DNA of 12,250 bases from Nanopusillaceae archaeon (GCA_049973735.1 JBMFJL010000013.1:1-12250); one strand, 5' to 3'. Shown: positions 1 through 12,250, counted from the first letter of the stretch. A program made the numbers and translations. Notes: generated from the sequence alone by a model not told the origin.

Positions 1-67
1 TTTTATTAATTTTATTTATTCATTTGATATATTTAATAAAAAAATAATAAAAGATTTTAAAAAATTT

Positions 68-586: not shown

Positions 587-1002
587 TAGTGATGATTTAT
601 CCAATAATTTTAGCACTTATAAGTAGTGATATAAGTAAAATTTTAGAAATTATTCTTTTTGTTTTTCCCCTAATTTTTTTAAGGGATGAAAAAGTTTATC
701 TTTCATTTTTTTACGGTCTATATTATGTAATATTAAAATTGATTTCAAAATTTTATTTATACAATTCTGGAATTTATATTTTAGAATTTTTCATTTTCCC
801 AGCTGGCGCCTTTTTTTCCTGTTTTTCAATTTCAATATCAAATCAACCAAATTTATTAATTGTTTCTCTATTTTTACTTTTCATCTCTTTATCAATAATG
901 TATGGTTTATATGTAATTTCAGAAAACTATGGGAAAATTACATTAGCCTCTTTTATAAATTTTCTCCTTTCTTCTTTGCCAAAACATATAAGTAGAATAT
1001 AA
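565..1002 (+). CDS. Hypothetical polytopic membrane protein (about 4 TM segments)
   Basis: 145-aa ORF made almost entirely of hydrophobic helices. It overlaps the previous ORF by 22 nt. An in-frame ATG at 592 (MIYPIILAL...) would remove that overlap and is an equally plausible start. The 3' end overlaps the convergent ORF 943-1125. Confidence 0.5.
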   Translation: MEKIEKIIVMIYPIILALISSDISKILEIILFVFPLIFLRDEKVYLSFFYGLYYVILKLISKFYLYNSGIYILEFFIFPAGAFFSCFSISISNQPNLLIVSLFLLFISLSIMYGLYVISENYGKITLASFINFLLSSLPKHISRI

Positions 1003-1125
1003 AATAAAAATAAAATATATAATTGCACCAATAATTTCTAATAAACTTTCTGAAAAAAGCATAGAAAAAACTAGTAAAAATAATAAAATTGTTCCATATA
1101 TGAAAAATATTAAATCCATGTCCAT
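943..1125 (-). CDS. Small two-TM membrane protein, last gene of the minus-strand operon
   Basis: 60-aa ORF with two hydrophobic helices and a basic tail (WQRRKEKIYKRG). It starts 7 nt downstream of the stop of the protease gene on the same strand. Confidence 0.45.
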   Translation of the reverse strand: MDMDLIFFIYGTILLFLLVFSMLFSESLLEIIGAIIYFIFILYSTYMFWQRRKEKIYKRG

Positions 1126-1132
1126 AAATATA

Positions 1133-1879
1133 TTAAATATAAGAAGGTAATATAGTTAATTGTGTTGGAATTCCATATACTGTTAAATTCATTAAAACAT
1201 GAAAATCATAGCTCATATGTGCAAACAAAGGAATCCAAATTGTAAATGTTTTTATTCCCAATTTCCCAAAAGTTTCTTCATTTAATATAAAACCTGAAAC
1301 TGTGAAAAATATAACTACTAAAGTCATTGGAATTAAATATATTAAAATTGCCCTTCCCCATGCATAAAAGTGGTTTGCAACAAATAGTAAACTTGAAATT
1401 AAAACTGCTAAAAATAAGCTAAATCTATAATTTTTTGTTTTTTCAATAAAATAATTAAAGAAAATTAACATTCCAACAATTCTAATTATTTCTTCATGAA
1501 ATGCAATAACAAATGTTGCTAATATATTTTCAAAAGGAGAATAAGATAAAAAAACACTCATTACTAATGAATCAGCCGGAAAAATTGAAGATTTTGCAAT
1601 ATTATATACAATTGAACCACAAAACCAACCAATAATTCCTGCAATAATAAATCTTAAAGCAATTATATGAGATGGAGCATTATTTAATGAAAAACCTAAA
1701 GCCTTGAAAAATTGAGTTCCTCTTGCTGAAACAATAATTAAAATTGGAATTAAAGTTAATGTATAAAATTCAAAAATGTTTAAATTTGTTCCTTTAATTG
1801 CAATAAAAGTTAAATATAATGCTAACCAACCAAATAAAAATAATGCTAATAATGGATTTTTTGGAATTCCTTCTATCAT
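1133..1879 (-). CDS. CPBP/PrsW-type (Abi clan, CAAX-protease-like) intramembrane protease
   Basis: 248-aa polytopic membrane protein. It carries the three ordered family motifs: FHEEIIRIVG (EExxR; canonical CPBP is EExxxR), LLFVANHFYAW (FxxxH) and LFAHMSYDF (HxxxD). Their spacing is about 40 and about 50 residues. Its ATG overlaps the stop of the upstream 1017-aa gene in an ATGA. Confidence 0.65.
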   Translation of the reverse strand: MIEGIPKNPLLALFLFGWLALYLTFIAIKGTNLNIFEFYTLTLIPILIIVSARGTQFFKALGFSLNNAPSHIIALRFIIAGIIGWFCGSIVYNIAKSSIFPADSLVMSVFLSYSPFENILATFVIAFHEEIIRIVGMLIFFNYFIEKTKNYRFSLFLAVLISSLLFVANHFYAWGRAILIYLIPMTLVVIFFTVSGFILNEETFGKLGIKTFTIWIPLFAHMSYDFHVLMNLTVYGIPTQLTILPSYI

Positions 1880-4800
1880 AATAAACTTTTCAAAAAGTTA
1901 ATTAAGTTCATTACAATATTAATTATCCATTCAATAAAATTATAAAGCCATTCAGTAAATGCAGTTGCATAAACTTTTTCTTTAACCCAAACTGAAAAAT
2001 ATTTTATTTCTCCTAAATTAAAAGAGCCCAATAATGCATCAACTATTTCATCGTTTACACAATAAAATTCTATTTCTCTTAAATTGTTTTTACCCATTGG
2101 ATCTGATGTTTCAAAAATTTTGTAAACATCAGAACATCTATAATTTTTAATTTTGAACCTTATTCTAACATCATCTAAAGGATATGGACTTAATGACCTA
2201 ACTTCAAATGGATAAATTAAGTATTGTGTTGAATCAATCAATTTTCTATAATATTGTTTCCATGTTGCATTTCCAACTGGAATTTGAAAAGATATTAAAT
2301 ATTTTCTTGATTCATATGGTTTTAAATCAAAAATATCTAAATCATAAGAGCCCCTTACAACTTTTTTCTCATCTATTAATTTATCATTATAATAAAGTTT
2401 TAAATTCTCTCCATATGTAATTGGAATTTGCTTTCTAACTGCAGGAACAAATTCTCCAATCCAATTTTTTACATCAATATCAACAATTAAATTTGCTAAA
2501 TGTCCAACATAAAACTTTTCTGGATATTTAGGAGCAGAAACTAAAACAGTAACTGGGGGACCAATAAATTCAACAATATGATATGTTTTTGAATTAGCAG
2601 GGGCACTACCTTCAACATAAATATATGGACCAATAGGTGGAAAACTAGAAAAATGCATTTCTTTTGGAATTCCATCAACTTTTGCATTTGAAGATTCTAA
2701 TGGTAAATGAATTGGTTCTTTATAATCCAATCCAACAGGATATTCATTTACACAACTTACATTCCATAAAAATATAAGATTTTCGCCAGCAATTGCATGT
2801 TTAACAGTTTTATTTATAACTTCACAATATACTTTCATCATTATTCCATAAACAACAATTTCTACATATGAATTTTCATCAATTCTTGGAATTTTAAAAG
2901 TTAATAAATCTGGCTTACCATTATTATTTGTATCATAAGTTTTCGGCGGACCATATAAAGAATTATCTAATATGCTTGGTCCCCCTCTAATATATATATC
3001 TTTAATTGATAATCTTTCATCTATTGGTAATGCAACAAAAACATCAAATAAAGTAAATGATTTTCCAGAAACATTTATTGTTAAATAATATTCCAATCTT
3101 TCAAATCTTTCAATAGTATTATAATTAATTGCTGAAATGTTTGTCCAAACTCTATAAGTTCTTTCTTCTCCAGGTAAAAAGTTTGAAAAATAAACTCTTA
3201 CTTTATTTTCATCATAATTTACTTCAATATTTTGATATTGGTCATTATATGTTACATTTACTTGATTAAATAATGATTCTGGAGGAATTGGTAATTCTTT
3301 ATATCCTTCTTTTATTTCTAATTCACCAATATTTTTTAATACAAGATCTCTAAATACTAATCCTTTCTTTCCAATTTCATATTTACAATCTGGGCAATAT
3401 TTTTTACAATATGCTTCAAAATCCCAATTTTTACATGGAATTGCATTATATGTTCCAATTTGAATAATATTAACATAACCGAATTTAAATATTGAAAATA
3501 TTGATAAAATTTTTTGTAAAATTCTTGTTATTATAACATTTCTACTTAATTCTTCAATAAAATTTTGAGTAATATTTACAGTTTTTATCACACTTTTACT
3601 TAATTTATCAATAATGCTTTCTTTTACATCATCTTTTTTTTCTGTTTTTGCTAAAATATTAATATTTTTTATTTCAAAAGAACCACTATTATCAACAGTT
3701 ATATTTACTATCAAATAGCAATAACCATTATCATCTGGATTACAAGTATTTAACCAATTAAAAAAATCTGTTTCATTAATATTAACAACTGCCGTTTGAC
3801 CTAAAAAATCACCAGAATATGAATATTCAATATTATTATCATTAAATACATCAACTCTTGGATTATTTAGATCATAATTTGAACATCCACCACCACTTCC
3901 TGGACTTGGGCATGTACAATCTGGCGGGCTAGGAGTATAAGAACACGAATAACAAGATGCACATCCTCCACCAGTATATGGTGAAGTACATGAACATGGC
4001 GGGCTAGGAGTATAAGAACATGAATAACAAGAATTACAAGTAGCAGAACAACTAACATATTCTTCACCTGTGCAAGGGTCTACTGAAGGACAAGAAGTAC
4101 TAGTTATTGCACTACATTTTCTATATGAGGTATATCCATATCCACAACCCATCCCAACAGAGTAGCAATCTGCTGTTGAAACGCCTAGAGAACATGCTGA
4201 ATCTGAATATGCAGTAAAAGAACAATAACAGGTAATAGAAGAAGGAGGGCTATAACTACATGTTTGAGTTTTTGATGTTGAACCTGGACCTTGAACACAT
4301 TGAGGAACATAAGTACCTGAACATGCATTACCACACAATCCACCAGAGCAGCTATAAACTTGTGATAAATATGCCTGAACCGATGCTGTAAAGTAGTAGG
4401 TAGATGTACAATAAATGCTAGCAGATGAATAATCATAGAAACTTAAAGAAGAACCTTCATCAGTAAAACCACTATTACATGTTGGATATAGTATACTTAC
4501 AGATGCTGAACTTCCACAACCTATTCCTTGATCATAATCATAACTACAAGTATAAGTACTTTTATAGTCTTTTATTCCTCCACCACTTCCTGGACTTGGG
4601 CATGCACAATTTTCCGAACAACTTGGGGTATAATAACATGAATAACAACTTGCAATTCCTCCACCAGTATATGGGGAAGTACATGAACAAGAAGGACAAG
4701 AAGGGGTATAAGAACAAGAATAACAAGAAACACATTCTCCAGATTTACCATAAATTGTAAAATTGAAAGGTGGAATATAAGTAAAATTTTTAAATATTTT

Positions 4801-4929
4801 AAAATAAAAAATGTTTGAACCTTTTGAAACAGAAAATGTATAAACTTTATCAGTCCCTCTATCGTAATATACTTGTGCAAATGAAATCGTGAAAAAAAGT
4901 AAAAATATTATTAATGCTTCCTTTCTCAT
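1876..4929 (-). CDS. Large secreted surface protein with an N-terminal Cys/Ser/Tyr/Thr/Gly/Pro-rich nested-repeat domain and a long beta-rich C-terminal region
   Basis: 1017-aa ORF with signal peptide MRKEALIIFLLFFTISFA/QV. Residues about 66-349 are almost exclusively C/S/Y/T/G/P, with about 40 Cys by manual count, and contain two roughly 53-aa modules. The rest is Asn/Lys/Ile/Tyr-rich with many N-x-S/T sequons. The C-terminus is amphipathic and hydrophobic (...FIEWIINIVMNLINFLKSLL). Confidence 0.9.
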   Translation of the reverse strand: MRKEALIIFLLFFTISFAQVYYDRGTDKVYTFSVSKGSNIFYFKIFKNFTYIPPFNFTIYGKSGECVSCYSCSYTPSCPSCSCTSPYTGGGIASCYSCYYTPSCSENCACPSPGSGGGIKDYKSTYTCSYDYDQGIGCGSSASVSILYPTCNSGFTDEGSSLSFYDYSSASIYCTSTYYFTASVQAYLSQVYSCSGGLCGNACSGTYVPQCVQGPGSTSKTQTCSYSPPSSITCYCSFTAYSDSACSLGVSTADCYSVGMGCGYGYTSYRKCSAITSTSCPSVDPCTGEEYVSCSATCNSCYSCSYTPSPPCSCTSPYTGGGCASCYSCSYTPSPPDCTCPSPGSGGGCSNYDLNNPRVDVFNDNNIEYSYSGDFLGQTAVVNINETDFFNWLNTCNPDDNGYCYLIVNITVDNSGSFEIKNINILAKTEKKDDVKESIIDKLSKSVIKTVNITQNFIEELSRNVIITRILQKILSIFSIFKFGYVNIIQIGTYNAIPCKNWDFEAYCKKYCPDCKYEIGKKGLVFRDLVLKNIGELEIKEGYKELPIPPESLFNQVNVTYNDQYQNIEVNYDENKVRVYFSNFLPGEERTYRVWTNISAINYNTIERFERLEYYLTINVSGKSFTLFDVFVALPIDERLSIKDIYIRGGPSILDNSLYGPPKTYDTNNNGKPDLLTFKIPRIDENSYVEIVVYGIMMKVYCEVINKTVKHAIAGENLIFLWNVSCVNEYPVGLDYKEPIHLPLESSNAKVDGIPKEMHFSSFPPIGPYIYVEGSAPANSKTYHIVEFIGPPVTVLVSAPKYPEKFYVGHLANLIVDIDVKNWIGEFVPAVRKQIPITYGENLKLYYNDKLIDEKKVVRGSYDLDIFDLKPYESRKYLISFQIPVGNATWKQYYRKLIDSTQYLIYPFEVRSLSPYPLDDVRIRFKIKNYRCSDVYKIFETSDPMGKNNLREIEFYCVNDEIVDALLGSFNLGEIKYFSVWVKEKVYATAFTEWLYNFIEWIINIVMNLINFLKSLL
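3883..4038 (-). repeat. Cys-rich module copy A (aa about 298-349: CNSCYSCSYTPSPPCSCTSPYTGGGCASCYSCSYTPSPPDCTCPSPGSGGGC)
   Basis: Contains two 35-nt sub-repeats (3923-3957 and 3998-4032) that differ at 1 position. Each encodes SCYSCSYTPSPP. It shares caccacttcctggacttgggcatgYacaat with copy B. Confidence 0.9.
4576..4734 (-). repeat. Cys-rich module copy B (aa about 66-118: CVSCYSCSYTPSCPSCSCTSPYTGGGIASCYSCYYTPSCSENCACPSPGSGGG)
   Basis: Lies exactly 690 nt (230 codons) from copy A. The 30-nt stretch 4581-4610 matches 3891-3920 at 29/30 positions. The rest of the module is conserved at protein level but more diverged at DNA level. Confidence 0.9.
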
Positions 4930-4947
4930 AATATTATGGAAGAAAGG
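4920..4947. promoter_or_regulatory. Palindromic head-to-head start region of the divergent operons
   Basis: The sequence is CCTTTCT-CATAATATTATG-GA-AGAAAGG. The 12-bp core CATAATATTATG (4927-4938) is a perfect palindrome whose two ends are the start codons of the minus-strand gene (4929) and the plus-strand gene (4936). The flanking CCTTTCT / AGAAAGG arms are complementary, with a 2-nt offset. Confidence 0.6.
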
Positions 4948-5571
4948 CTAATAATGTTTATTGTAACGTCATTAATTGTAATATTTGTATCATATATTGC
5001 TTCTTTTGTTCATGGTTCTTTGTTCATTTTATCTACAATATTTGCCTCCCTATCTTCTTTATTATTTTTTTATAAAAATGAATATCCAATTTTAAAACTT
5101 TTTCTATTTTTCTTTTTATCAACTTTAATATTTTCAATTTTTATTAATCTTTTTTTCCCTAACATTTATAAAGAAATAAAAGAAGAATTAGGAATGGGTG
5201 AAAAATTAGAAAGTAAAGAAAATTTATTAAGAACAATATTTTCTCACAACTTATCATTATATTTACAAGCTTTCATTTTATCTTCTCTTTCAATTGTTGG
5301 TGGTTTTATATATTTATTTTGGAATTTATTACTTTTTTGGATTCTTATTATTAATAGTATAAATCCATTTTTTACATTTATTATTTTAGCACCTCATGGA
5401 ATTTTAGAGTTTTTCTCTTTTTATCTTGCCTCAATTTCTGGAACAAAAATATTTAAAAATTTAATACTTAAAGAAGAAATAAGTGAAAAAGAAATTTTGA
5501 AAATGTTTTTATTTGGAATTTTAATTTTATTTATTGCAGCATTAATTGAAGTTTTAATAATTTCATTATGA
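4936..5571 (+). CDS. SpoIIM/DUF95-like polytopic membrane protein
   Basis: 211-aa multi-TM ORF. It carries the family-typical segments ...SHNLSLYLQAFILSSLSIVGG... and ...IILAPHGILEFFSFYLASISG... (the PHGxxE motif). An alternative start is M7 at 4954. The stop overlaps the next gene in an ATGA. Confidence 0.65.
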   Translation: MEERLIMFIVTSLIVIFVSYIASFVHGSLFILSTIFASLSSLLFFYKNEYPILKLFLFFFLSTLIFSIFINLFFPNIYKEIKEELGMGEKLESKENLLRTIFSHNLSLYLQAFILSSLSIVGGFIYLFWNLLLFWILIINSINPFFTFIILAPHGILEFFSFYLASISGTKIFKNLILKEEISEKEILKMFLFGILILFIAALIEVLIISL

Positions 5572-6002
5572 TTTTATTAGAAGGAAACGAGAGAAAATTA
5601 ATTTTATATTTGTTAGAAAAGAAATATATTGATTCAAAAAGTAGAATTTCAAAAGAACTTGGATTACATAAATTTACAGTTTCAAACATATTGAAAAAAT
5701 TTGAAAAATATGGAATAATTAATAATAATACAATTGATAAAAGTAAAATAAAAATTGAAAGAAACAATGAATATTTAATAGAAAATATTCAATTTTTAAT
5801 TTTGGGAATGATTTTAGCAATAATTGTTTGTTTAGTTTATTTAAATATATCAATTTTATTAGGTGCATTGCTTGTTTATATTCCCCAAACTTTTTGGGTT
5901 ATAAGGAATTATTTATTTAATAAAGATATGTGGAAAATTTATATAATTAGTCAAGAAATTGAACAAAAAATGGATAACAAATCACTAAATATATCAAATT
6001 GA
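5568..6002 (+). CDS. Membrane-tethered winged-helix (MarR/ArsR/TrmB-like) transcriptional regulator
   Basis: 144-aa ORF. The N-terminus NERKLILYLLEKKYIDSKSRISKELGLHKFTVSNILKKFEKYGII has the classic wHTH pattern. It is followed by a long hydrophobic stretch (IQFLILGMILAIIVCLVYLNISILLGALLVYIP) that predicts 1-2 TM helices. Translationally coupled to the upstream gene. Confidence 0.7.
   Translation: MILLEGNERKLILYLLEKKYIDSKSRISKELGLHKFTVSNILKKFEKYGIINNNTIDKSKIKIERNNEYLIENIQFLILGMILAIIVCLVYLNISILLGALLVYIPQTFWVIRNYLFNKDMWKIYIISQEIEQKMDNKSLNISN
5986..5993 (+). promoter_or_regulatory. TATA-like box (TAAATATA) for the 6012 gene
   Basis: Located at -26..-19 relative to the ATG at 6012, the same position as TTAAATAT upstream of the ATG at 10659. 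No SD lies between it and the ATG. It sits inside the 3' end of the regulator CDS. Confidence 0.35.
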
Positions 6003-6011
6003 ATTAAGATT

Positions 6012-6641
6012 ATGGCCCTAAAAACTCAAGCAAATATATGGTTAGTAGTATTGCTATTACTAGGAATATTAGCAATAGCATTATATGTTAGACCACCAGC
6101 AGCTGTTCCACCAGCACCAGTAAAATATGAAGGAGAATTTAGAGCAATAGGATTACCAATGGAAGTAACTGGAACATGGTTAACTGGAAGTGAACAAGTA
6201 GTAACTCAATATGGTCAATATAACTTTACAACAAAGAAAGCATTAAGTGTTGTAGGTTCAGTATATCCATTAGCATTTAGATTTGATATAGATGATGCAT
6301 TTGAAAAAGTAAGAATAGATATTACAAAATTGTCAAGTGAGATTGATTTAGTAGAGGCTTGTATATTACCAGATGAAAAAGAAATGACATTAGATTGTAA
6401 AAATGCATTATATAAAGCAGAAATTGATACAGTAAGAGGTACAGCAGAATTTAAGATTGACAATTTAAGTGATAAGCAATATGATAAATATGTAATGCTA
6501 TTATCAACAAAAGTTACAGATCCAGCAGTAAATTCTACATATGTTACAGCAGATAGTGATCTATTCAAGCTAGTATTTGATGGTAAAAGTGATGGAGATG
6601 TTAAGGACTTTACAGTAATGATAATTAATGGAGGTTATTAA
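6012..6641 (+). CDS. Secreted or N-terminally anchored beta-rich protein, probably abundant and structural
   Basis: 209-aa ORF. The N-terminus MALKTQANIWLVVLLLLGILAIALYV is followed by a Pro/Ala linker (RPPAAVPPAPV). Codon choice is visibly different from neighbouring membrane genes (gca/gta/aca/gga-rich). It ends in a double stop TAATAG followed by an oligo-T terminator. Confidence 0.85.
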   Translation: MALKTQANIWLVVLLLLGILAIALYVRPPAAVPPAPVKYEGEFRAIGLPMEVTGTWLTGSEQVVTQYGQYNFTTKKALSVVGSVYPLAFRFDIDDAFEKVRIDITKLSSEIDLVEACILPDEKEMTLDCKNALYKAEIDTVRGTAEFKIDNLSDKQYDKYVMLLSTKVTDPAVNSTYVTADSDLFKLVFDGKSDGDVKDFTVMIINGGY

Positions 6642-6650
6642 TAGCTAGCC

Positions 6651-6672
6651 TCTCTCTTTTTTTTATTTTTTT
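6651..6672 (+). terminator. Oligo-T (archaeal-type) terminator
   Basis: tctctcttttttttattttttt lies 10 nt after the stop of the 6012 gene. It has no stem-loop. It closely resembles the tract at 9707-9727. Confidence 0.55.
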
Positions 6673-6704
6673 CACAATTTTTTTATGGAAAAAGAATTTA
6701 AATA
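6673..6704 (+). promoter_or_regulatory. Conserved promoter box 1 (CACAATTTTTTTATGGAAAA) plus TATA-like TTTAAATA
   Basis: The 20-bp box spans -48..-29 relative to the ATG at 6721. The TATA-like octamer lies at -24..-17 and is preceded by a purine-rich BRE-like GGAAAAAGA. The dyad is TCACAA-N5-TTATGG. Confidence 0.65.
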
Positions 6705-6720
6705 ATAATTAAATAGTATT

Positions 6721-7299
6721 ATGGCTAAAATAGAAAAGCCATCAATAATTGGAATAATAATTATTACTATTTTTGTAGTTGGATACTTTCTTTTTTCCAA
6801 AACTTTTCAACAAATTAGAGGAGTAAGATATGAAAAAGTAAAAACGCCATATGGGGAGGTAAAATATGAAGTTCGAATACCAACTATGTATGTAAAAGGT
6901 TCTTTTGAAATTGGTTGTATGGATATATGGATAAAAAAATGGTGTTGGTTGGTTGATAAGAGTGTAAAAATTGAAACTGTAGAATTAAGATATACAAAGC
7001 CATTATTTGAAATTTTTAAACCAAAAATACCAACACTTGCAATATGGACTGATCCTGCAATTATTACCACAAAATTAAAACTTATATCACCATCCGGTAA
7101 TGTATACGAATATGTAGATATGAAAGAAGTAAAATTTTATGATCCAGGAAAATATACAACAGAATTTACAACCGACTTTCTAAATGAAGAAGGTAGATGG
7201 CAAGTAACTCTTATTGTTATTGAACATAGAGAAGGAAAAGAATTAAGAGATTCAACTATTGTTGATGTAAGATTCCAAAAAATACCAGTAGGAACATAA
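6721..7299 (+). CDS. N-terminally anchored or secreted beta-sandwich-like protein
   Basis: 192-aa ORF with signal anchor MAKIEKPSIIGIIIITIFVVGYFLF. The remainder is beta-strand-type sequence (e.g. GKYTTEFTTDFLNEEGRWQVTLIVIE). It is the first gene behind box 1. Confidence 0.85.
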   Translation: MAKIEKPSIIGIIIITIFVVGYFLFSKTFQQIRGVRYEKVKTPYGEVKYEVRIPTMYVKGSFEIGCMDIWIKKWCWLVDKSVKIETVELRYTKPLFEIFKPKIPTLAIWTDPAIITTKLKLISPSGNVYEYVDMKEVKFYDPGKYTTEFTTDFLNEEGRWQVTLIVIEHREGKELRDSTIVDVRFQKIPVGT

Positions 7300-7300
7300 C

Positions 7301-7657
7301 ATGCTTCCTATTATTCTTAAAGTGATAATAATCTTATTACCAATTTTATTTATTGCATTTTCTGCTTATATTGTTTATTCTATTATTAATTTATTTATTA
7401 CAGTTTTAGATCTTTTAACTCCAGTAGTTGCATTTATTTTATCAATTTTCATATATATGGAGCTGTATAAATATTTAAAAAGCTTTACTGAATTAAGTGA
7501 AACATCAAGAGCAATTATTTCAGGAATTGCAGCAATTTTAGCATTTATATTTATGGTAAAAAGTTTTGTAAACTTAGTATTAATTGCAATATTTATTCTT
7601 ACAGTTTACTTTATTGTTAAAAATTTAAAGTCTATAAAAGAATTCATTAAACCATAA
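7301..7657 (+). CDS. Small polytopic membrane protein (3-4 TM)
   Basis: 118-aa hydrophobic ORF starting 1 nt after the previous stop. An AGGA lies about 8 nt upstream, consistent with an internal-gene SD. Confidence 0.7.
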   Translation: MLPIILKVIIILLPILFIAFSAYIVYSIINLFITVLDLLTPVVAFILSIFIYMELYKYLKSFTELSETSRAIISGIAAILAFIFMVKSFVNLVLIAIFILTVYFIVKNLKSIKEFIKP

Positions 7658-7684
7658 TTTTTTTGTGGAAAAACGATTTAAAAA
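7653..7684 (+). promoter_or_regulatory. Conserved promoter box 2 (CATAATTTTTTTGTGGAAAA) plus TATA-like TTTAAAAA
   Basis: Same -48..-29 position relative to the ATG at 7701. The dyad is CCATAA-N5-TTGTGG. The box overlaps the TAA stop (7655-7657) of the preceding gene, so its T7 run could also act as that unit's terminator. Confidence 0.65.
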
Positions 7685-7700
7685 AGATAAAATATAAATT

Positions 7701-8576
7701 ATGAGCATAAAAAATCAAGCAGGATTAATAGTAGGAATAACACTAATGATATTAGGAATAATTGGCTTATTAGATGAAATGGGTATAATAGACCTTAAAT
7801 TATTATCAGCATATCAACAAGGAAATCCGGGAATGGGGTTAAAACTATCAATAAAACCAGTATCATTATTCCCATTAGAAGTTGTTGAACCAGGAAAAAC
7901 ATATGAATTTGAAGTAACATTAAGAAATACTGGTACCATGAATTGGGATTCTGCTTGGGTCCATCTCAGAATTCCAAATTATAGAAATACAGGAAAGACA
8001 ACAACTAATGTACCAATAGGAGGAACATTAACTAGAAGCTGTGATTCAGGTGCTACAGAAATTCCAACTGGCTCTTGTAGCGAGGGTGTAGAGGTTGGAT
8101 GGACAGGTCAATGTGTTCAAGGATACGATCATTATGTTGTAGAATGGATACAAAAACCAGGAACTAAAAAATGTGTTGCAGACCATTCCACTTATAGTAG
8201 TAGTATAGATATGAATCAAATTATAACAAAAGTATCAGGAGATGGAAATTTTGTTAGAGATGGAAATTTTGTTAGAATTGATTATGGTTCAGTAAGTGCA
8301 GGAGCAAGTAAAACAACAAGACTAAGAATTACAATACCTTCAGATTTGCCAAATAAAATGTTTAATGACCCAAACGAAATTAATTATGTGCCATTAGTAA
8401 TAACAGGAGGAGCAAGTGCAGGCGGAACAAGAGCATTTGAAACAAAAATTATACAATTGCAAAATGGTGCAGTTTTTGCTTATGAATTTACAGTAAGATG
8501 GATAGGATTAGTATCAGCTGCAATAATTGGCACAGCATTAACTCTATTTTTCAGTAGAAGATTAGGATATATATGA
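7701..8576 (+). CDS. Surface protein with a CARDB/Ig-like beta-sandwich region, a 4-Cys insert and a C-terminal motif + TM + basic tail
   Basis: 291-aa ORF with N-terminus MSIKNQAGLIVGITLMILGIIGLL. LEVVEPGKTYEFEVTLRNTG is a typical CARDB/NEW3-like strand pattern. The C-terminus is FAYEFTVRWIG-LVSAAIIGTALTLFF-SRRLGYI. Confidence 0.9.
   Translation: MSIKNQAGLIVGITLMILGIIGLLDEMGIIDLKLLSAYQQGNPGMGLKLSIKPVSLFPLEVVEPGKTYEFEVTLRNTGTMNWDSAWVHLRIPNYRNTGKTTTNVPIGGTLTRSCDSGATEIPTGSCSEGVEVGWTGQCVQGYDHYVVEWIQKPGTKKCVADHSTYSSSIDMNQIITKVSGDGNFVRDGNFVRIDYGSVSAGASKTTRLRITIPSDLPNKMFNDPNEINYVPLVITGGASAGGTRAFETKIIQLQNGAVFAYEFTVRWIGLVSAAIIGTALTLFFSRRLGYI
8241..8276 (+). repeat. Perfect 18-bp tandem duplication (gatggaaattttgttaga x2)
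   Basis: 8241-8258 is identical to 8259-8276. The duplication is in frame and encodes DGNFVR-DGNFVR. Confidence 0.95.
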
Positions 8577-9343
8577 AAATTAAATTAGAACATTTAGCAA
8601 TAGTAGCAGCAATAGTAGTAGGTCTATATTTAGCTAAGACTTTCCTTCTTTCTTATATTTCTTATGTAAAATTAACATCAGATAGATACCATCTTCTTTA
8701 TGGTAAACCTGTTACTTTTACACTTACTTGCGAATATTATTTAAATGAGGGAGGAAAATATACAGTAAAAGTTGGAGATTGTACTTATAGTTATTATTGG
8801 GCTAGTAGTGGATTAAAAACAGATACGTGTACATATAAAGATAGCATTTTTTATACAGAAGGTGGTAAAACATTTTATTGTGAAGTTACACATGAAAGTA
8901 GTGGGGAAAAGAAAACAGCTTCTGTAACTGTTTGTTTTGATAGAGTTGAAAATTTAAGAGTAAGTCCAACATCTATTACAGTTTCACCAGGGCAAAAATA
9001 TACTATAACAGTTGAACTAAATGCTTATAGTTATGGGGCATGTGCTACTTATAATAAAAAAATTTATATAGATAATAATTTGGTTGATAGTTTTAGTTAT
9101 TTAAGCAATAATTATTATAAAAAATCATTTGAGCTAACTGCTCCAAGCAATCCAGGAACTTATACTAAATACGTAAGGGTAAAAACATATGATGATGCAT
9201 TTGAATTTACCTCAACATCTTTTACAGTAACTGTTACTTCTTCTCAACCATCACAACAATTTGGTTATGAATTTGTATATAGATGGATAGGTCAGGTTTT
9301 ATCATTAATAAAAGAAGCTTTATCATTAATTAAACCTATTTAA
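8573..9343 (+). CDS. Secreted or anchored Ig-like/CARDB-like protein, C-terminal paralog of the 7701 gene product
   Basis: 256-aa ORF in an ATGA overlap with the upstream gene, with an AGGA 5 nt upstream. The N-terminal TM is MKIKLEHLAIVAAIVVGLYLAKTFLL. Ig-like patterns include VSPTSITVSPGQKYTITVELN and APSNPGTYTKYVRVKT. The C-terminus is FGYEFVYRWIGQVLSLIKEALSLIKPI. Confidence 0.85.
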   Translation: MKIKLEHLAIVAAIVVGLYLAKTFLLSYISYVKLTSDRYHLLYGKPVTFTLTCEYYLNEGGKYTVKVGDCTYSYYWASSGLKTDTCTYKDSIFYTEGGKTFYCEVTHESSGEKKTASVTVCFDRVENLRVSPTSITVSPGQKYTITVELNAYSYGACATYNKKIYIDNNLVDSFSYLSNNYYKKSFELTAPSNPGTYTKYVRVKTYDDAFEFTSTSFTVTVTSSQPSQQFGYEFVYRWIGQVLSLIKEALSLIKPI

Positions 9344-9384
9344 ATATATCGATATAATTAAATATATATTTTTCCACATTTTCC

Positions 9385-9416
9385 CACAATTTTTTTATGG
9401 AAAATAGTTATATATG
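9385..9416 (+). promoter_or_regulatory. Conserved promoter box 3 (CACAATTTTTTTATGGAAAA) plus TATA-like TTATATAT
   Basis: Same -48..-29 position relative to the ATG at 9433. The dyad is CCACAA-N5-TTATGG. An extra half-site-like CCACAT lies 10 bp upstream (9374-9379). Confidence 0.65.
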
Positions 9417-9432
9417 AAATATATCTAATAGT

Positions 9433-9705
9433 ATGGAAGCAATTGGATTAACTACAATGCTATCTATAGTATTATTAGCAGTGTTAGGATTGCTAAATGC
9501 AAGAGTTAGAAGGACAGAAGAGCATGTAAAAGATATAGCAATGACATTAGCAATAGTAATGATTCTATCATTCGTACTTGGAACTCTTTTAGGAGAACAA
9601 GTTCTTTTTACTGCAACAGATATAGTTAGAACAATAATTGTAGGAATTGTAGCATATATAACAGGGTTAATAGTTGGTTATGCAAGAGAAAAAGTAACTG
9701 CTTAA
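9433..9705 (+). CDS. Small three-helix hydrophobic membrane protein in its own monocistronic unit
   Basis: 90-aa ORF with three hydrophobic helices. It has its own box 3 promoter and an oligo-T terminator immediately after the stop. Its codon choice resembles the other putatively abundant genes. Confidence 0.8.
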   Translation: MEAIGLTTMLSIVLLAVLGLLNARVRRTEEHVKDIAMTLAIVMILSFVLGTLLGEQVLFTATDIVRTIIVGIVAYITGLIVGYAREKVTA

Positions 9706-9706
9706 T

Positions 9707-9727
9707 CCCTTTTCTTTTTTATTTTTT
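9707..9727 (+). terminator. Oligo-T (archaeal-type) terminator
   Basis: cccttttcttttttatttttt lies directly after the TAA of the 9433 gene. It has the same C/T-rich lead followed by a T-run, an A and a second T-run, as at 6651-6672. Confidence 0.55.
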
Positions 9728-10078
9728 ATGAGAGTATGGAAAATATCTTTATTAATTTTAATTTTTTGGATAATTTTTATCAATGTTTTTTCAAATTATG
9801 AAATAAAAATAGAAGAAAACAAAACAAAAAATTTTGGTAATAGTTCTAATGTAAATATAGGAACAATGGCAAGCTTAACAGTAGAAGTAAAAAGGGCTAA
9901 ATATTTTTTCATTTTTCCAACATATATATATTTTTATAAGCCAATTATTTCAAATTTTAATATTTATTTAGTTCCTGGAGAAATTAGGGTTTTTGAAATT
10001 ACAATTGCATTAATAATTATTACTTTAATTCTTTTTATTTTTGATATTTTAAAGCGAAAAGATTATGAATTAATTTAA
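9728..10078 (+). CDS. Hypothetical bitopic membrane protein (N- and C-terminal TM)
   Basis: 116-aa ORF with N-terminal TM ISLLILIFWIIFINVF and C-terminal TM ITIALIIITLILFIF followed by KRK. It starts directly at the end of the terminator T-tract with no visible promoter, so expression is uncertain. Confidence 0.5.
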   Translation: MRVWKISLLILIFWIIFINVFSNYEIKIEENKTKNFGNSSNVNIGTMASLTVEVKRAKYFFIFPTYIYFYKPIISNFNIYLVPGEIRVFEITIALIIITLILFIFDILKRKDYELI

Positions 10079-10086
10079 TATATATT

Positions 10087-10623
10087 ATGGTTTCAAAGAA
10101 ATTGCTAATAGCTATTACATTAATAGGAATTTTATTAGGAATAGCAATTATATTTAAAGGAAATGAAAATTTAAAAGCTAGTGGCAAATATTTAACAACA
10201 GTAGAAATATATAAAAATGGGGAATTAATATGGAAAGGAAGTAATGTAATAACAGATATAGGATTTAACTTTACAAGAGGACAACTTTTAACACCATTAA
10301 CAGGAGTATCATTAAAATATATTAGCTTATCAAATGTTAGCGGAGTTTGTTCTAATACAGCAACAAATATACAAGAATTAAATGTATGTGGATTAACAAG
10401 AGCTGAAGGAACAGTTACACAATATGGATATAACCAATATATAGTTGAGAAAACATTTACATTAACTTGTGATGTTCCAAACGTTCAAGTAGCAGGATTG
10501 CATTGGGATCCAACAGCACAATCTGATAATAATTTATTTAGTTGTGCTAGCTTTCCAGTAGTTAATTTAGTAACTAATGACCAAATAACAATTAGGTGGA
10601 ATGTGACAATGATAGAAGGTTAA
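10087..10623 (+). CDS. N-terminally anchored or secreted beta-rich protein
   Basis: 178-aa ORF with N-terminus MVSKKLLIAITLIGILLGIAIIF. The all-beta-like remainder contains 4 Cys. Codon choice resembles the 6012, 7701 and 9433 genes. Confidence 0.85.
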   Translation: MVSKKLLIAITLIGILLGIAIIFKGNENLKASGKYLTTVEIYKNGELIWKGSNVITDIGFNFTRGQLLTPLTGVSLKYISLSNVSGVCSNTATNIQELNVCGLTRAEGTVTQYGYNQYIVEKTFTLTCDVPNVQVAGLHWDPTAQSDNNLFSCASFPVVNLVTNDQITIRWNVTMIEG

Positions 10624-10631
10624 CAGAAAAG

Positions 10632-10667
10632 CTTAAATATCTTTTCCATAATTATTTTATGGTAAAA
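10632..10667 (+). promoter_or_regulatory. TATA-like box (TTAAATAT, -26..-19) followed by variant box 4 (CATAATTATTTTATGGTAAAA) that overlaps the start codon
   Basis: The first 16 nt of the box differ from the CAYAATTTTTTTATGG consensus at one position. The dyad is CCATAA-N5-TTATGG, with extended arms CTTTTCCATAA / TTATGGTAAAAG. The ATG inside the box (10659) is the likely start of the next gene. Confidence 0.5.
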
Positions 10668-12095
10668 AGAATAATAATATTAATAATAATATTAAGCATA
10701 TTGCCAATAATATTTGCAGACTCAATAAATCCAAACAATTTAACTATATATGGATATGAAGGTGAAGAAGGGATTAGAGAATTTACTTTAACATTAGATA
10801 CAAATGAAACATGTTATTGGTATATTCCTTCTCCAACATTTGGATATGTTGATATAAGATTTTATCCATCAAAAATTTTGGGTCCAATTCAAACTACAAT
10901 TGCATTATGGTATAAATTAAAAAATGCAGGAAATTTTAATATTACAGCATATTATTGTAATGCATCTTTAAATTTAAATTTTATTGTTTCTCCTAAACCG
11001 ATTCAAACAGTTCAAACTCAAACAAATCAAACTCAAACATGCCCAAGAATAGTTAAAGTTTTTGGTTCTCCAAATCCGGGAAAAACAATAACATTTGATG
11101 TAAGAAATGAGCAATATTTTAGAGTTAAACATTCGGAGCAATCAATTTCACTAACTGATGAAGAAGGGAACACATATAATGTTGAATGTCCAAACGGTTT
11201 TTGCAAGTTTCAAATTCCTGAAACAGTTCAATCAGGAAAATTGGTATATGAAGTTGTTGTTCCTGGTTGTGAACCTTATGTTGGGGAAATAGAAATAAAA
11301 CCTCTTGGACAAATACAAATTAGTGCTCCAAGTAATATAAAATATGGAATAACATTTTTTGTTTATATTTTTGACCCTTTCAAAGGACCAATAAAATATG
11401 CAAATGTAAAAATTTTGAAACCTAATGGAGAAGTAATAAATGCAAGGACAAATGAAAATGGAATTGTTACAGACGAATCATTAACAAAAACTTTTGGAAA
11501 GGAGTTGTATCCAAATATGATTGGACCTTGGAAAATACAAGTATTTCAACCTGGATATGCCCAAGCAACATATGAAATAAATGTAGAAAAAGGAGCGTGC
11601 CCATTTGAATGTTGTGTTAATGAAGAACTTTATGTTGATAAGGAATGTGCTCCAGGGTATTACTGTTTAAATAGGGTTTGTAAATTAAAGGAACTTCCAA
11701 AAATAGATATAATTTGTGACCCATTACCAGAAATTGGAGCTAAATCAATTTGTAAATTATATTCTAATAATACAACTTTAAAAATAACAACAGATGCAGA
11801 TTTTATTTATGCTGGGGAAGCAATAAAAGTAAGATTTGTTGATGGAGAAGCAACAATAAATTGGGATAGAGTTGGAAATTATAAATTAATTGTCCAACCA
11901 GAAGGATATCAAAAAGCAATATTAGAAGGTGAAATTAAAGGTATGCAAATTCCTTTAGGTTTAGTAGCTGCAATTATTTTTATATTATTAATAGTAATCT
12001 TTATATTTTTAAAGAAAAAATATGAAGAAAAACCAAAAGAAACGAGAAAAATTAAAGTTGTTGCAAAAGGAAAAGGTGCACTTGAGGAGATATGA
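10659..12095 (+). CDS. Type I membrane surface protein with CarboxypepD_reg/Ig-like beta-sandwich domains, a QT-rich linker, a six-Cys knot and a C-terminal TM anchor
   Basis: The track ORF starts at 10596, but in-frame M22 (10659) gives a clean signal peptide MVKRIIILIIILSILPIIFA/DS, removes the overlap with the previous gene, and sits behind a TATA-like box. FDPFKGPIKYANVKILKPNGEVINARTNENGIVTDE is a CarboxypepD_reg-like pattern. The C-terminal TM is LGLVAAIIFILLIVIFIFL followed by a Lys-rich tail. Confidence 0.85.
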   Translation: MVKRIIILIIILSILPIIFADSINPNNLTIYGYEGEEGIREFTLTLDTNETCYWYIPSPTFGYVDIRFYPSKILGPIQTTIALWYKLKNAGNFNITAYYCNASLNLNFIVSPKPIQTVQTQTNQTQTCPRIVKVFGSPNPGKTITFDVRNEQYFRVKHSEQSISLTDEEGNTYNVECPNGFCKFQIPETVQSGKLVYEVVVPGCEPYVGEIEIKPLGQIQISAPSNIKYGITFFVYIFDPFKGPIKYANVKILKPNGEVINARTNENGIVTDESLTKTFGKELYPNMIGPWKIQVFQPGYAQATYEINVEKGACPFECCVNEELYVDKECAPGYYCLNRVCKLKELPKIDIICDPLPEIGAKSICKLYSNNTTLKITTDADFIYAGEAIKVRFVDGEATINWDRVGNYKLIVQPEGYQKAILEGEIKGMQIPLGLVAAIIFILLIVIFIFLKKKYEEKPKETRKIKVVAKGKGALEEI

Positions 12096-12250
12096 TAAAA
12101 AAAATTTTAAGATTTCTTTTTGGACCAAAGAAAAAAGAATACTATACTAAAGTTAGGCCAGAAGATTATGAAAGATTAGTAAAAAAAGGGGTTCAATTGG
12201 AATTAGCTGAATTAAGAAGGGAAAATTTAGAATTGAGAAAGGAGTTAGAA
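12092..12250 (+). CDS. 5' fragment of a further gene (continues beyond the window); basic N-terminus followed by a coiled-coil-like segment
   Basis: Not in the ORF track because there is no stop within the window. The ATG at 12092 overlaps the TGA of the previous gene (ATGA) and has GAGGAG just upstream. The frame is open for all 53 codons to the window end: MIKKILRFLFGPKKKEYYTKVRPEDYERLVKKGVQLELAELRRENLELRKELE. Confidence 0.5.
   Translation, partial: MIKKILRFLFGPKKKEYYTKVRPEDYERLVKKGVQLELAELRRENLELRKELE

What the first reader, a model, noticed from the sequence alone, without database searches (positions are those of the whole stretch)
6673..10667. Conserved 20-bp box with dyad CCAYAA-N5-TTRTGG at an invariant distance from three start codons, plus a fourth copy over a start codon
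CAYAATTTTTTTRTGGAAAA occurs at 6673, 7653 and 9385, each time exactly 48 nt upstream of an ATG (6721, 7701, 9433). Each copy is followed by a TATA-like octamer at -24..-17. A variant at 10647 places the box's own ATG as the likely start of the 10659 gene, downstream of a separate TATA-like box. The hexamer arms are mutually complementary and their centres lie 11 bp apart, about one helical turn. That geometry is expected for a dimeric HTH factor. The internal T7 run could also terminate the upstream transcript, since box 2 overlaps the preceding stop codon. The box may therefore be a terminator-operator-promoter cassette defining a small regulon of surface-protein units. The genes at 6012, 9728 and 10087 lack it.
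Basis: seen in the sequence. Interest (0 to 1): 0.75.

Follow-up and report, generated by a model that had tools for sequence, protein, structure and literature searches.

The report
Conserved operator-like dyad in nanoarchaeal promoters
A 17-bp dyad-symmetric DNA site heads four operons of membrane and surface proteins in an uncultured nanoarchaeon and recurs at matching promoters in distant relatives, so it is most likely the docking site of a dimeric regulator, a familiar kind of switch in a barely studied symbiont.

Summary
CAYAATTTTTTTRTGGAAAA occurs exactly at 6673, 7653 and 9385, each 48 nt before an ATG, and a 2-mismatch copy at 10647 contains the ATG of the 10659 gene. No shuffle in 200 gave 4 matches. 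The exact 20-mer occurs only as singletons in the genome and metagenome collections.

The window is a whole contig of a Nanopusillaceae archaeon MAG. The conserved core is the dyad TTTnCCAnAA-N5-TTnTGGnAAA. I found 13 such sites in at least 5 lineages, down to 48% protein identity, at syntenic promoters.
- The arms are kept.
- The A/T-only spacer varies.
- The T7 run is not conserved.

There are two placements: abutting the BRE/TATA about 41 nt before a leaderless-type start, or between the TATA and the start codon.

Best reading: the binding site of a dimeric winged-helix regulator, working like the Thermococcales TGM or the Sulfolobus ArnR boxes. The adjacent membrane-anchored wHTH gene (5568-6002) stays linked to the island across lineages and is the leading candidate, but this is untested.

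This is a new member of a known kind, of moderate interest. Relatives carry a Fusexin1 homolog under the same box.

The parts
6672..6688 (+). Dyad site W1, TCACAA-TTTTT-TTATGG (20-bp box 6673-6692). 'Upstream' class. It heads the 6721-7299 / 7301-7657 operon.
   Evidence: The syntenic sites in L187 (ACATAA-AAATT-TTATGG) and L182 (TCAAAA-TCATT-TATTGG) align with it (A3).
6697..6704 (+). TATA box TTTAAATA of the W1 promoter. It lies 8 nt after the dyad, and the purine-rich gap AAAAAGAA is BRE-like. The ATG at 6721 follows 16 nt later with no SD.
   Evidence: N. equitans box A TTTAAA lies 26-27 nt before the TSS (PMC3491384).
7652..7668 (+). Dyad site W2, CCATAA-TTTTT-TTGTGG (box 7653-7672). It overlaps the stop codon of 7301-7657 and heads the 7701-8576 / 8573-9343 operon. 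Its TATA is at 7677-7684.
   Evidence: L180 (92% aa relative) has CACAAATTTTTTATGGAAAA exactly 48 nt before the same gene start, with unrelated sequence upstream of the box.
9384..9400 (+). Dyad site W3, CCACAA-TTTTT-TTATGG (box 9385-9404). It heads 9433-9705 and probably 9728-10078 and 10087-10623. Its TATA is at 9408-9416.
   Evidence: It is unchanged in L113, where 4 substitutions fall in the rest of the spacer region. The syntenic L181 site is CCAAAA-AATAA-TTTTGG (A4).
9374..9378 (+). Extra left-type half-site CCACA, 10 bp upstream of W3. It is also present in L113. L181 has an extra CCAAAA 22 bp upstream of its syntenic site.
   Evidence: from the sequence. Its significance is unproven.
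10646..10662 (+). Dyad site W4, CCATAA-TTATT-TTATGG. 'Over-start' class: the right arm contains the ATG at 10659 of the 478-aa gene. The extended palindrome is CTTTTCCATAA...TTATGGTAAAAAG.
   Evidence: The same placement, 13 nt before the ATG, occurs in L181 (two genes), L183 and L113, and is lost in L184.
10632..10639 (+). TATA box CTTAAATA of the 10659 gene, at -27..-20. It places W4 between the TATA and the start.
   Evidence: L181, L183 and L113 show the same arrangement.
5568..6002 (+). Candidate regulator: a 144-aa protein with an N-terminal winged helix-turn-helix followed by two transmembrane helices. It overlaps, and is co-directional with, the SpoIIM-like gene 4936-5571.
   Evidence: Pfam and NCBIfam give HTH hits only below the cut-offs. 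The AF2 model has pLDDT 83 and shows a wHTH plus a helical hairpin. Foldseek finds MarR/Lrp-type wHTH regulators. Linkage to the island is conserved in L186, L188, L187, L198+L182 and L192.
6642..6671 (+). Pyrimidine-rich T-run block (CCTCTCTCTTTTTTTTATTTTTTT) after the stop of the 6012-6641 gene. It is the likely real terminator ahead of W1.
   Evidence: The block CCCTTTCCCTTATTTTTTATTT is conserved in L187 and L182 (A3). Polypyrimidine T-stretch terminators are reported in N. equitans (PMC3491384).
6721..12095 (+). The genes behind the four boxes: 6721, 7301, 7701, 8573, 9433, 9728, 10087 and 10659. Nearly all have N-terminal hydrophobic anchors, and some show Ig-like, CARDB-like or CarboxypepD_reg-like traces.
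   Evidence: They are syntenic with L181/L182.

Best explanation
The box is the binding site of a dyad-symmetric (dimeric) winged-helix transcription regulator and forms part of a fixed archaeal promoter architecture.

The recognised element is TTTnCCAnAA-N5-TTnTGGnAAA. The two CCAnAA arms lie one helical turn apart around an A/T-only spacer.

At three promoters (W1-W3) the dyad ends 8 nt before the TATA (7 nt at W3 if its TATA is read from 9408), so it abuts the BRE. It is centred about 41 nt before the start codon of a leaderless-type first gene. From there a bound dimer would touch TFB/TBP and most likely help recruit them (activation).

At the fourth promoter (W4) the same dyad sits between the TATA and the start codon, centred at about -5. 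There a bound dimer would block RNA polymerase (repression).

One factor would therefore set the balance between the 6721, 7701 and 9433 operons and the 10659 operon. The most likely factor is the membrane-anchored wHTH protein encoded at 5568-6002.

Shown: the motif, its geometry, its two placements, and its conservation at syntenic promoters across lineages.

Inferred: the transcription start sites, protein binding, the sign of regulation, and the identity of the factor.
For: 1. Non-randomness. There are 4 copies against 0.15 expected. The dyad with at most 1 mismatch occurs 6 times against 0.83 expected in the window, and 6 times against 0.63 in L181, where 5 are perfect. Real AT-rich DNA carries 0.24 perfect dyads per 12 kb.

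2. Phylogenetic footprint. I found 13 sites in the window lineage, L180, L187, L183 and L181/L182. They lie at syntenic promoters: W1~L187~L182, W3~L181b, W4~L181c~L183. The proteins have diverged to 30-63% identity.

3. Pattern of conservation. Information content peaks on CCA.AA and TT.TGG and on the symmetric TTT/AAA flanks. The spacer varies (TTTTT, AAATT, AATAA, TTATA, TTATT) but is always A/T. This matches the 13-17 bp imperfect inverted repeats with an AT-rich centre that dimeric archaeal wHTH regulators bind (PMC6396743).

4. Fixed architecture. The dyad is followed 5-9 nt later by a TATA. The dyad start lies 49-53 nt before the ATG in the upstream class and exactly 13 nt before it in the over-start class.

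5. Leaderless first genes. Box-headed genes have no SD, while internal genes do (AGGA before 7301 and 8573, GAGGAG before 12092). The TATA sits 24-27 nt before the ATG, close to the 26-27 nt reported for N. equitans.

6. Specificity. Other promoters of the island lack the dyad (6012, 4936, 4929-, and all of L198).

7. Candidate factor. The model shows a wHTH plus two TM helices. The family is rare, with 5 representatives among 1.84 billion proteins. The gene stays next to homologs of the island genes in four lineages despite an inversion.

8. Precedent. TGM sites (TATCAC-N5-GTGATA) activate when upstream of the BRE/TATA and repress when over the TSS (PMC4158304). ArnR is a membrane-bound HTH activator that binds N5-spaced inverted repeats upstream of a surface-structure promoter.
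Against: - No binding, TSS or expression data exist.
- The rest of the source genome could not be scanned. Regulon size is therefore unknown, and I cannot tell whether the motif is confined to this island.
- The TTTAAA of W1-W3 starts 24 nt before the ATG, 2-3 nt closer than in N. equitans. TSS placement is therefore uncertain.
- The right arm TTATGG resembles the common start context ttATGG of this genome, which has 6 such gene starts. Part of the conservation of over-start sites is therefore forced by coding.
- The wHTH gene's own promoter has no dyad. The more distant L192 lineage keeps the wHTH-island linkage but has no dyad.
- Another small wHTH gene (L181 11193-11567) lies beyond the part of the island that the window covers.
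Confidence: 0.65

Rival explanations
1. The box is a general or extended core-promoter element read by the basal machinery. One form is a palindromic BRE-TATA-BRE unit, in which CCAAAA/CAYAA acts as a BRE and the A/T core as a TATA. On this view it is not the site of a specific regulator.
For: The centre is entirely A/T, and CAAAA fits a VRAAA-type BRE. The A-run after the dyad lies where a BRE is expected. TATA-like words are everywhere in this 26% GC DNA.
Against: Only 4 of about 10 promoters in the window have it, and none in the left half of the island does.

In the over-start class the dyad lies 13 nt before the ATG, downstream of a proper TATA, where a core promoter makes no sense.

If the box were the promoter of W1-W3, the mRNAs would carry leaders of about 14 nt without an SD, whereas internal genes do use an SD.

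A separate TATA follows every upstream-class site at a fixed distance.
Confidence: 0.12
2. The box is mainly a transcript 3'-end signal for the upstream gene, either an oligo-T terminator or a weak hairpin plus T-run. It would be fused by chance to the next promoter.
For: W1-W3 carry T7. Box 2 overlaps the upstream stop codon and is the only T-run there. Archaeal RNAP terminates at T-stretches (PMC3491384).
Against: The T-run is not conserved. Relatives have AAATT, AATAA or TTATA.

Separate conserved pyrimidine/T-run blocks precede the boxes.

The RNA hairpins are weak, at -3.7 to -5.3 kcal/mol at 37 C with z about -1.1.

The distance to the downstream ATG and TATA is fixed, whereas the distance to the upstream stop varies from overlapping the stop codon (W2) to 41 nt.
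Confidence: 0.06
3. The boxes are junctions for recombination that swaps surface-protein gene cassettes. Their conservation would reflect a recombinase site or repeated homologous exchange.
For: The boxes bracket the segment of the island that differs between lineages: 192+118+291+256 aa in the window against 180+233+596 aa in L181/L182.

In L180, homology to the window starts exactly at the left edge of the box, with unrelated sequence upstream.
Against: All copies are in direct orientation. The 6-bp arms and 5-bp spacer are short for known tyrosine or serine recombinase cores. No recombinase gene was found in the window or in L181/L182/L198. The tight spacing to the TATA and ATG is not explained by this model.
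Confidence: 0.06
4. The boxes are non-functional leftovers of a duplicated promoter segment.
For: Three copies within 2.7 kb are 100% identical over 18 fixed bases. L181 has two identical 23-bp copies.
Against: Similarity ends at the box and TATA, and the flanks are unrelated. The dyad survives at syntenic sites in lineages whose proteins are 30-60% identical, where neutral intergenic DNA is saturated. The changes keep the dyad symmetry (CCAcAA/TTaTGG to CCAaAA/TTtTGG).
Confidence: 0.05

Closest known systems
Thermococcales glycolytic motif (TGM, TATCAC-N5-GTGATA), bound by TrmBL1/Tgr
   Same: Hexamer inverted repeat with a 5-bp spacer. It occurs at many promoters in two placements. Upstream of the BRE/TATA it activates; over the transcription start it represses (PMC4158304). 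The window and L181 show the same two placements.
   Different: The arm sequence is different. No TrmB-family regulator was detected: the 5568 product hits the TrmB HTH only at E 0.05, below the cut-off. The target genes encode surface or membrane proteins, not sugar metabolism. Nothing has been tested experimentally here.
ArnR/ArnR1 and the ArnR boxes (TCGAC-N5-GTCGA) of the Sulfolobus acidocaldarius flaB promoter
   Same: A membrane-bound one-component regulator with an N-terminal HTH and two C-terminal TM helices. It binds N5-spaced inverted repeats upstream of the BRE/TATA of cell-surface-structure genes (PMC6396743). The 5568 product has a wHTH followed by two TM helices and sits next to a surface-protein island.
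   Different: The 5568 product is only 144 aa and has no HAMP or sensor domain. The box sequence is different. ArnR needs two boxes between -43 and -84, whereas here a single dyad abuts the BRE. Homology to ArnR was not tested. The target genes are not type IV pilus genes.
Archaeal Lrp/FFRP-type operators (13-17 bp imperfect palindromes with an AT-rich centre, e.g. Ptr2, Ss-LrpB)
   Same: A 17-bp imperfect inverted repeat with an A/T-only centre. Activation from a position just upstream of the BRE/TATA is documented for Ptr2 (cited).
   Different: No RAM/AsnC domain protein is present in the window. LrpA similarity of the 5568 product is limited to the HTH and is not significant (E 0.17; 0.028, below the cut-off).

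Membership tests
TGM-type position-dependent operator (TrmBL1/Tgr regulon) | Inverted hexamer repeat with a 5-bp spacer | tested here: met
   CCAnAA-N5-TTnTGG in 13 sites.
TGM-type position-dependent operator (TrmBL1/Tgr regulon) | Consensus TATCAC-N5-GTGATA | tested here: not met
   The arms are CCAYAA or CCAAAA.
TGM-type position-dependent operator (TrmBL1/Tgr regulon) | Sites either upstream of the BRE/TATA or over the transcription start | tested here: inconclusive
   Both placements are seen relative to the TATA and the ATG. The TSSs are inferred from TATA spacing and lack of SD, not mapped.
TGM-type position-dependent operator (TrmBL1/Tgr regulon) | TrmB-family regulator (PF01978 plus a sugar-binding domain) | tested here: not met
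   The best TrmB HTH hit of any window protein has E 0.053 and 13.8 bits, against a cut-off of 25.6. No effector domain is present.
ArnR-type membrane-bound HTH regulator with ArnR boxes | N-terminal HTH and two C-terminal transmembrane helices | tested here: met
   AF2 model (pLDDT 83): H7-17, H24-31, H35-47, a wing at 51-65, and long hydrophobic helices at 67-91 and 94-117. The layout is conserved in 6 family members.
ArnR-type membrane-bound HTH regulator with ArnR boxes | HAMP and sensor domains between the HTH and the TM helices | tested here: not met
   The protein is 144 aa. The wing is followed directly by the first TM helix.
ArnR-type membrane-bound HTH regulator with ArnR boxes | Sequence homology to ArnR/ArnR1 | not tested
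Pfam and NCBIfam gave only generic sub-threshold HTH hits.
ArnR-type membrane-bound HTH regulator with ArnR boxes | The regulator binds the inverted repeats | not testable with these tools
   This needs EMSA, footprinting or MST.
Lrp/FFRP-type operator | [quoted passage not shown] | tested here: met
   The dyad is 17 bp, and its spacer plus the inner arm bases are all A/T.
Lrp/FFRP-type operator | Regulator with an HTH plus a RAM (AsnC-type) domain | tested here: not met
   No AsnC/RAM hit for any window protein.
Archaeal core promoter (BRE/TATA) | A/T box about 26-27 nt upstream of the TSS, with a BRE immediately upstream | tested here: not met
   The dyad centre lies 41 nt (upstream class) or 5 nt (over-start class) before the ATG. 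A separate TATA sits at the expected distance of 24-27 nt. The TSSs are not mapped.
Archaeal oligo-T terminator | A run of 5 or more T after the stop codon, conserved as such | tested here: not met
   T7 is present in W1-W3 only. The spacer is AAATT, AATAA or TTATA in relatives, and separate T-run blocks lie upstream.
Known structured RNA families (Rfam 15) | A match at the gathering threshold | tested here: not met
   No matches in the whole window.

The most novel reading that the evidence does not exclude
The dyad is the operator of a minimal membrane-tethered one-component regulator, the 144-aa wHTH-2TM protein. This regulator would sense the state of the envelope or contact with the host cell. 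It would then switch a dedicated island of host-interaction surface proteins reciprocally, turning three operons on and the 478-aa protein operon off. In sister lineages this island includes a Fusexin1 cell-fusion protein under the same box. If so, the box is a regulatory handle on attachment or membrane fusion between a nanoarchaeal ectosymbiont and its host.
Probability: 0.15. Interest if true: 0.75.

Novelty: new member of a known kind. Interest (0 to 1): 0.45.

Why it matters
I found no described pair of regulator and operator for Nanoarchaeota in the papers I searched. These are obligate ectosymbionts with tiny genomes. Their fast-evolving 'hypothetical external' proteins are suspected to mediate host recognition (PMC6142677), and it is unknown how they exchange material with the host (PMC4935971).

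The box marks out a co-regulated set of such proteins and gives a short, testable DNA probe. It could be used for EMSA or DAP-seq, and for a PWM to scan MAGs. It also nominates a regulator.

A Fusexin1 homolog sits behind the same box in relatives. This ties the element to the open question of whether archaeal fusexins act in cell-cell contact.

The mechanism itself, a palindromic operator with position-dependent effect, is conventional.

Tried and rejected
- **Collection scans with the exact 20-mer.** The viral hit is unrelated (52% GC, no protein similarity). The genome collection gave 69 singletons and the metagenome collection 109, which is chance level apart from L113. Five contigs of metagenome Ga0208946 share the 20-mer inside an unrelated GTGTTAAAA-repeat element.
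- **Phage or virus origin.** No DNA match in the phage collection. No relative of the 478-aa protein in IMG/VR. No meaningful PHROG hits.
- **Bacterial reading.** Sigma-70-like promoters number 35 against 37 expected, and intrinsic terminators 1 against 1.2. Rejected.
- **RNA element.** No Rfam match. The hairpins are weak. The upstream-class boxes lie outside the predicted transcripts.
- **Upstream mini-ORFs starting at the box ATG/GTG** (MEKEFK*, VEKRFKKDKI*, MENSYI*). There is no conserved peptide and no consistent upstream TATA (and my reading). Rejected as coincidence with the common ttATGG start context.
- **Dyad in more distant wHTH-linked loci.** None in L198, L192 or L191.
- **Structure of the 291-aa protein**, to test a fusexin-like fold. 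The pLDDT of 50.6 is unusable, so no fold search was run. Its sequence gives no PDB hit.
- **Re-checking the Fsx1 Pfam hit locally.** The local Pfam copy gave no family hit for this protein, so the precomputed PF28161 hit could not be re-checked there. The PDB search confirmed homology instead.
- **Exact look-up of the 209-aa window protein.** Not on record.

Full report
**Observation.** The 20-mer CAYAATTTTTTTRTGGAAAA is present exactly at 6673, 7653 and 9385, and with two mismatches at 10647, always on the + strand. The expectation is 0.15 matches, and 0 of 200 dinucleotide-preserving shuffles reach 4. In copies 1-3 an ATG lies exactly 48 nt after the box start (6721, 7701, 9433). An A/T octamer of TATA type lies at -24..-17. 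The repeat finder independently returns these three 58-nt box-to-ATG units as its best direct-repeat family. Copy 4 carries the ATG at 10659 in its right arm and has its own TATA (CTTAAATA, 10632-10639) upstream. The 478-aa product starting at 10659 is what NCBI annotates. There are two small corrections. The arms of copies 1-3 are not fully complementary at the Y/R position, and the outer base of the left arm of copy 1 is T.

**How rare the word is.** The exact pattern occurs 69 times in one genome from each of 185,579 species and in 109 stretches of the metagenome collection. It never occurs twice in one stretch. By BLAST only one of these loci, L113, is related to the window: 94.7% identity over 9305-11874. 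The looser dyad CCANAA-N5-TTNTGG occurs 0.24 times per 12 kb in 446 kb of unrelated AT-rich loci.

**Source and setting.** The window is a complete 12,250-bp contig of a MAG named 'Nanopusillaceae archaeon' (Nanoarchaeota), with 26% GC. Archaeal promoter rules therefore apply. In Nanoarchaeum equitans the box A TTTAAA lies 26-27 nt before the transcription start, and terminators are polypyrimidine T-stretches (PMC3491384). In the window, first genes have a TATA starting 24-27 nt before the ATG and no Shine-Dalgarno sequence. Genes inside operons do have one: AGGA before 7301 and 8573, and GAGGAG before 12092. I infer that the box-headed genes are leaderless or nearly so. The four boxes would then head four transcription units: 6721+7301; 7701+8573; 9433 (+9728, 10087); and 10659+12092. 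A sigma-70 and intrinsic-terminator scan gives nothing above chance.

**Relatives.** Protein searches found few relatives.
- *Near-identical strains:* L185, L186, L188-L190 and L113.
- *L180:* 92% aa identity in the 291-aa protein.
- *L187:* wHTH protein 60% identical, DNA about 70% identical.
- *L183 and L184:* 63% and 54% identity in the 478-aa protein.
- *L181/L182:* 48% identity in the 478-aa protein, contigs of 12 and 10 kb.

L181/L182 are syntenic with the window: 198~209 aa, 91~90 aa, 131~116 aa, 183~178 aa, 461~478 aa and 213 aa~12092 gene, with a different middle part.

**What is conserved.** L181 has five perfect CCAAAA-N5-TT(T/A/C)TGG dyads, and chance expectation for up to 1 mismatch is 0.63. 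All five are at promoters:
- before the 596-aa gene;
- before the 91-aa ortholog of the 9433 gene;
- over the ATG of the 461-aa ortholog of the 10659 gene;
- over the ATG of a 108-aa gene;
- in a divergent intergenic region.

L187 has ACATAA-AAATT-TTATGG at the place of W1. L182 has a degenerate copy there. L183 has ACAAAA-ATATA-TTATGG at the place of W4. L184 has lost it. L180 has CACAAATTTTTTATGGAAAA exactly 48 nt before the ortholog of the 7701 gene.

Across the 13 sites, information content is concentrated on CCA.AA and TT.TGG and on the symmetric TTT/AAA flanks.

**Two placements.** The sites fall into two classes, and both occur in both major lineages.
- *Upstream class:* the dyad starts 49-53 nt before the ATG. 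A TATA follows 5-9 nt after the dyad, across a purine-rich BRE-length gap.
- *Over-start class:* the dyad starts 13 nt before the ATG. The right arm is TT-ATG-G and the TATA lies upstream.

**Interpretation.** Several features together are the signature of a site for a dimeric DNA-binding protein that works with the basal machinery:
- symmetric arms one helical turn apart;
- a free but A/T-only centre;
- symmetric flanks;
- a fixed distance to the TATA;
- survival at orthologous promoters whose flanks are saturated with substitutions;
- absence from the other promoters of the island (6012, 4936, 4929-, and all of L198).

Archaeal precedents are close. The TGM (TATCAC-N5-GTGATA) of TrmBL1/Tgr activates when upstream of the BRE/TATA and represses when over the start (PMC4158304). 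Lrp-type dimers bind 13-17 bp imperfect palindromes with an AT-rich centre (cited in PMC6396743). ArnR is a membrane-bound HTH protein with two C-terminal TM helices. It activates a surface-structure promoter through TCGAC-N5-GTCGA boxes upstream of the BRE/TATA.

I therefore commit to a dual-function operator: activation at W1-W3 and repression at W4. My confidence is about 0.65 that it is a regulator site and about 0.4 for the signs.

**Candidate factor.** The 5568-6002 product models with pLDDT 83 as a winged HTH followed directly by two long hydrophobic helices. Foldseek finds only MarR/Lrp/DtxR-type wHTH regulators, and weakly. Pfam, NCBIfam and PDB sequence hits are all sub-threshold HTH hits. 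The family is tiny, with 5 representatives among 1.84 billion proteins.

Its gene stays with the island.
- It lies next to the SpoIIM-like gene and the 209-aa gene in L186, L188 and L187.
- In the L181/L182 lineage, L198 overlaps L182 by 714 bp at 100%. It shows the 31%-identical homolog divergent from the 198-aa gene and co-directional with homologs of the window's 1017-aa and CPBP genes.
- In the more distant L192 it lies beside homologs of the 478-aa and 291-aa proteins.

This is association, not proof. The gene's own promoter has no dyad, L192 has no dyad, and L181 encodes another small wHTH further right.

**Rivals.**
- *Core-promoter reading (BRE-TATA palindrome).* It fails on the over-start class, on the separate TATA that follows every upstream-class site, and on the lack of SD in the leaders it would create.
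- *Terminator reading.* The T-run is not conserved, separate conserved T-run blocks precede the boxes, and the hairpins are weak.
- *Recombination-junction reading.* It is suggested by the boxes bracketing the variable middle of the island, and by L180, where homology begins at the edge of the box. No recombinase is present, and the site is too short for known recombinase cores.
- *Neutral duplication.* Cross-lineage conservation excludes it.
- *RNA family.* None matches.

**Limits.** Genome-wide specificity is therefore unknown. TSSs are inferred. TTTAAA starts 24 nt before the ATG in W1-W3, slightly closer than in N. equitans, and no alternative start codon exists for 6721 or 7701.

**Verdict.** This is a real, conserved cis-regulatory dyad. 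It is a new member of a well-known kind of archaeal operator, in a phylum where I found none described. Interest is moderate (0.45). It is raised somewhat by the setting: a conserved island of surface proteins in an obligate ectosymbiont, which in relatives places a Fusexin1 homolog (PDB 7P4L, E 1e-18) behind the same box.

Noticed in passing
L181 1430-3220 (= L182 1998-3788): A 596-aa protein directly behind a box (L181 1379) is a Fusexin1 homolog. It matches PDB 7p4l at E 1.1e-18 over residues 133-443 and has a precomputed Pfam PF28161 hit. It occupies the slot where the window has the 291-aa and 256-aa genes, which show no sequence similarity to it. Fsx1 is described as carried by integrated mobile elements (PMC9259645).
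   Followed up: partly
window 4927-4938: The start codons of the divergent genes 1876-4929 (-) and 4936-5571 (+) are 6 bp apart, inside a perfect 12-bp palindrome CATAATATTATG. Each gene's TATA must therefore lie inside the other's coding region. The start context aatattATG recurs at many genes here and in L181.
   Followed up: no
window 1876-4929 (-): A 1017-aa secreted protein is extremely Cys/Ser/Thr/Tyr-rich in its N-terminal third, with repeated SCYSCSYTPS / CSCTSPYTGGG motifs. A 43%-identical homolog (1019 aa) lies in L198, and part of one in L191.
   Followed up: no
window 8475-8506 and 9260-9291: The 291-aa and 256-aa proteins share a C-terminal motif, (A/G)YEF(T/V)xRWIG, encoded by 81%-identical DNA. 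This suggests a common anchoring or sorting signal or partial paralogy. The 7701 gene also has an exact 18-nt tandem duplication at 8239-8274 (GDGNFVR x2).
   Followed up: no
L180 1-42 and 992-1033: The 1034-bp contig carrying the 92% homolog of the 7701 gene begins and ends with the same ~42 nt. It is therefore either a collapsed tandem array of this gene, each copy with its own box-promoter, or a circularised assembly artefact.
   Followed up: partly
window 9706-9727: Gene 9728 starts 22 nt after the stop of the 9433 gene. It lies directly behind T4/T6/T6 runs that look like a strong archaeal terminator, with no TATA and no SD. How it is expressed is unclear.
   Followed up: no
window 1-12250; L181, L182, L198: Neither the whole 12.25-kb contig nor about 17 kb of the syntenic relative contains a recognisable housekeeping gene. 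They hold only membrane or secreted proteins, a CPBP-type protease, a SpoIIM-like protein, small wHTH proteins and coiled-coil proteins. This may be a genomic island or an integrated element. No virus or recombinase signal was found.
   Followed up: partly
L074, L121, L132, L133, L151 (metagenome Ga0208946): Five contigs of one metagenome carry the exact 20-mer CACAATTTTTTTATGGAAAA inside a different repeated element, flanked by GTGTTAAAA/TTTTAACAC repeats. They have no protein or DNA similarity to the window.
   Followed up: no
window 9374-9378; L181 3203-3208: The promoter of the 90/91-aa gene has an extra left-type half-site upstream of the dyad in both lineages. It is 10 bp away in the window and L113, and 22 bp away in L181. 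These are whole helical turns, which hints at cooperative binding.
   Followed up: partly
L192 (GC 39%), 8051-13366: A more distant archaeon keeps the wHTH-2TM gene beside homologs of the 478-aa and 291-aa proteins. It uses SD-led genes and has no CCAnAA dyad. Its 42-nt divergent intergenic region holds two inverted TTTAAATA boxes.
   Followed up: partly
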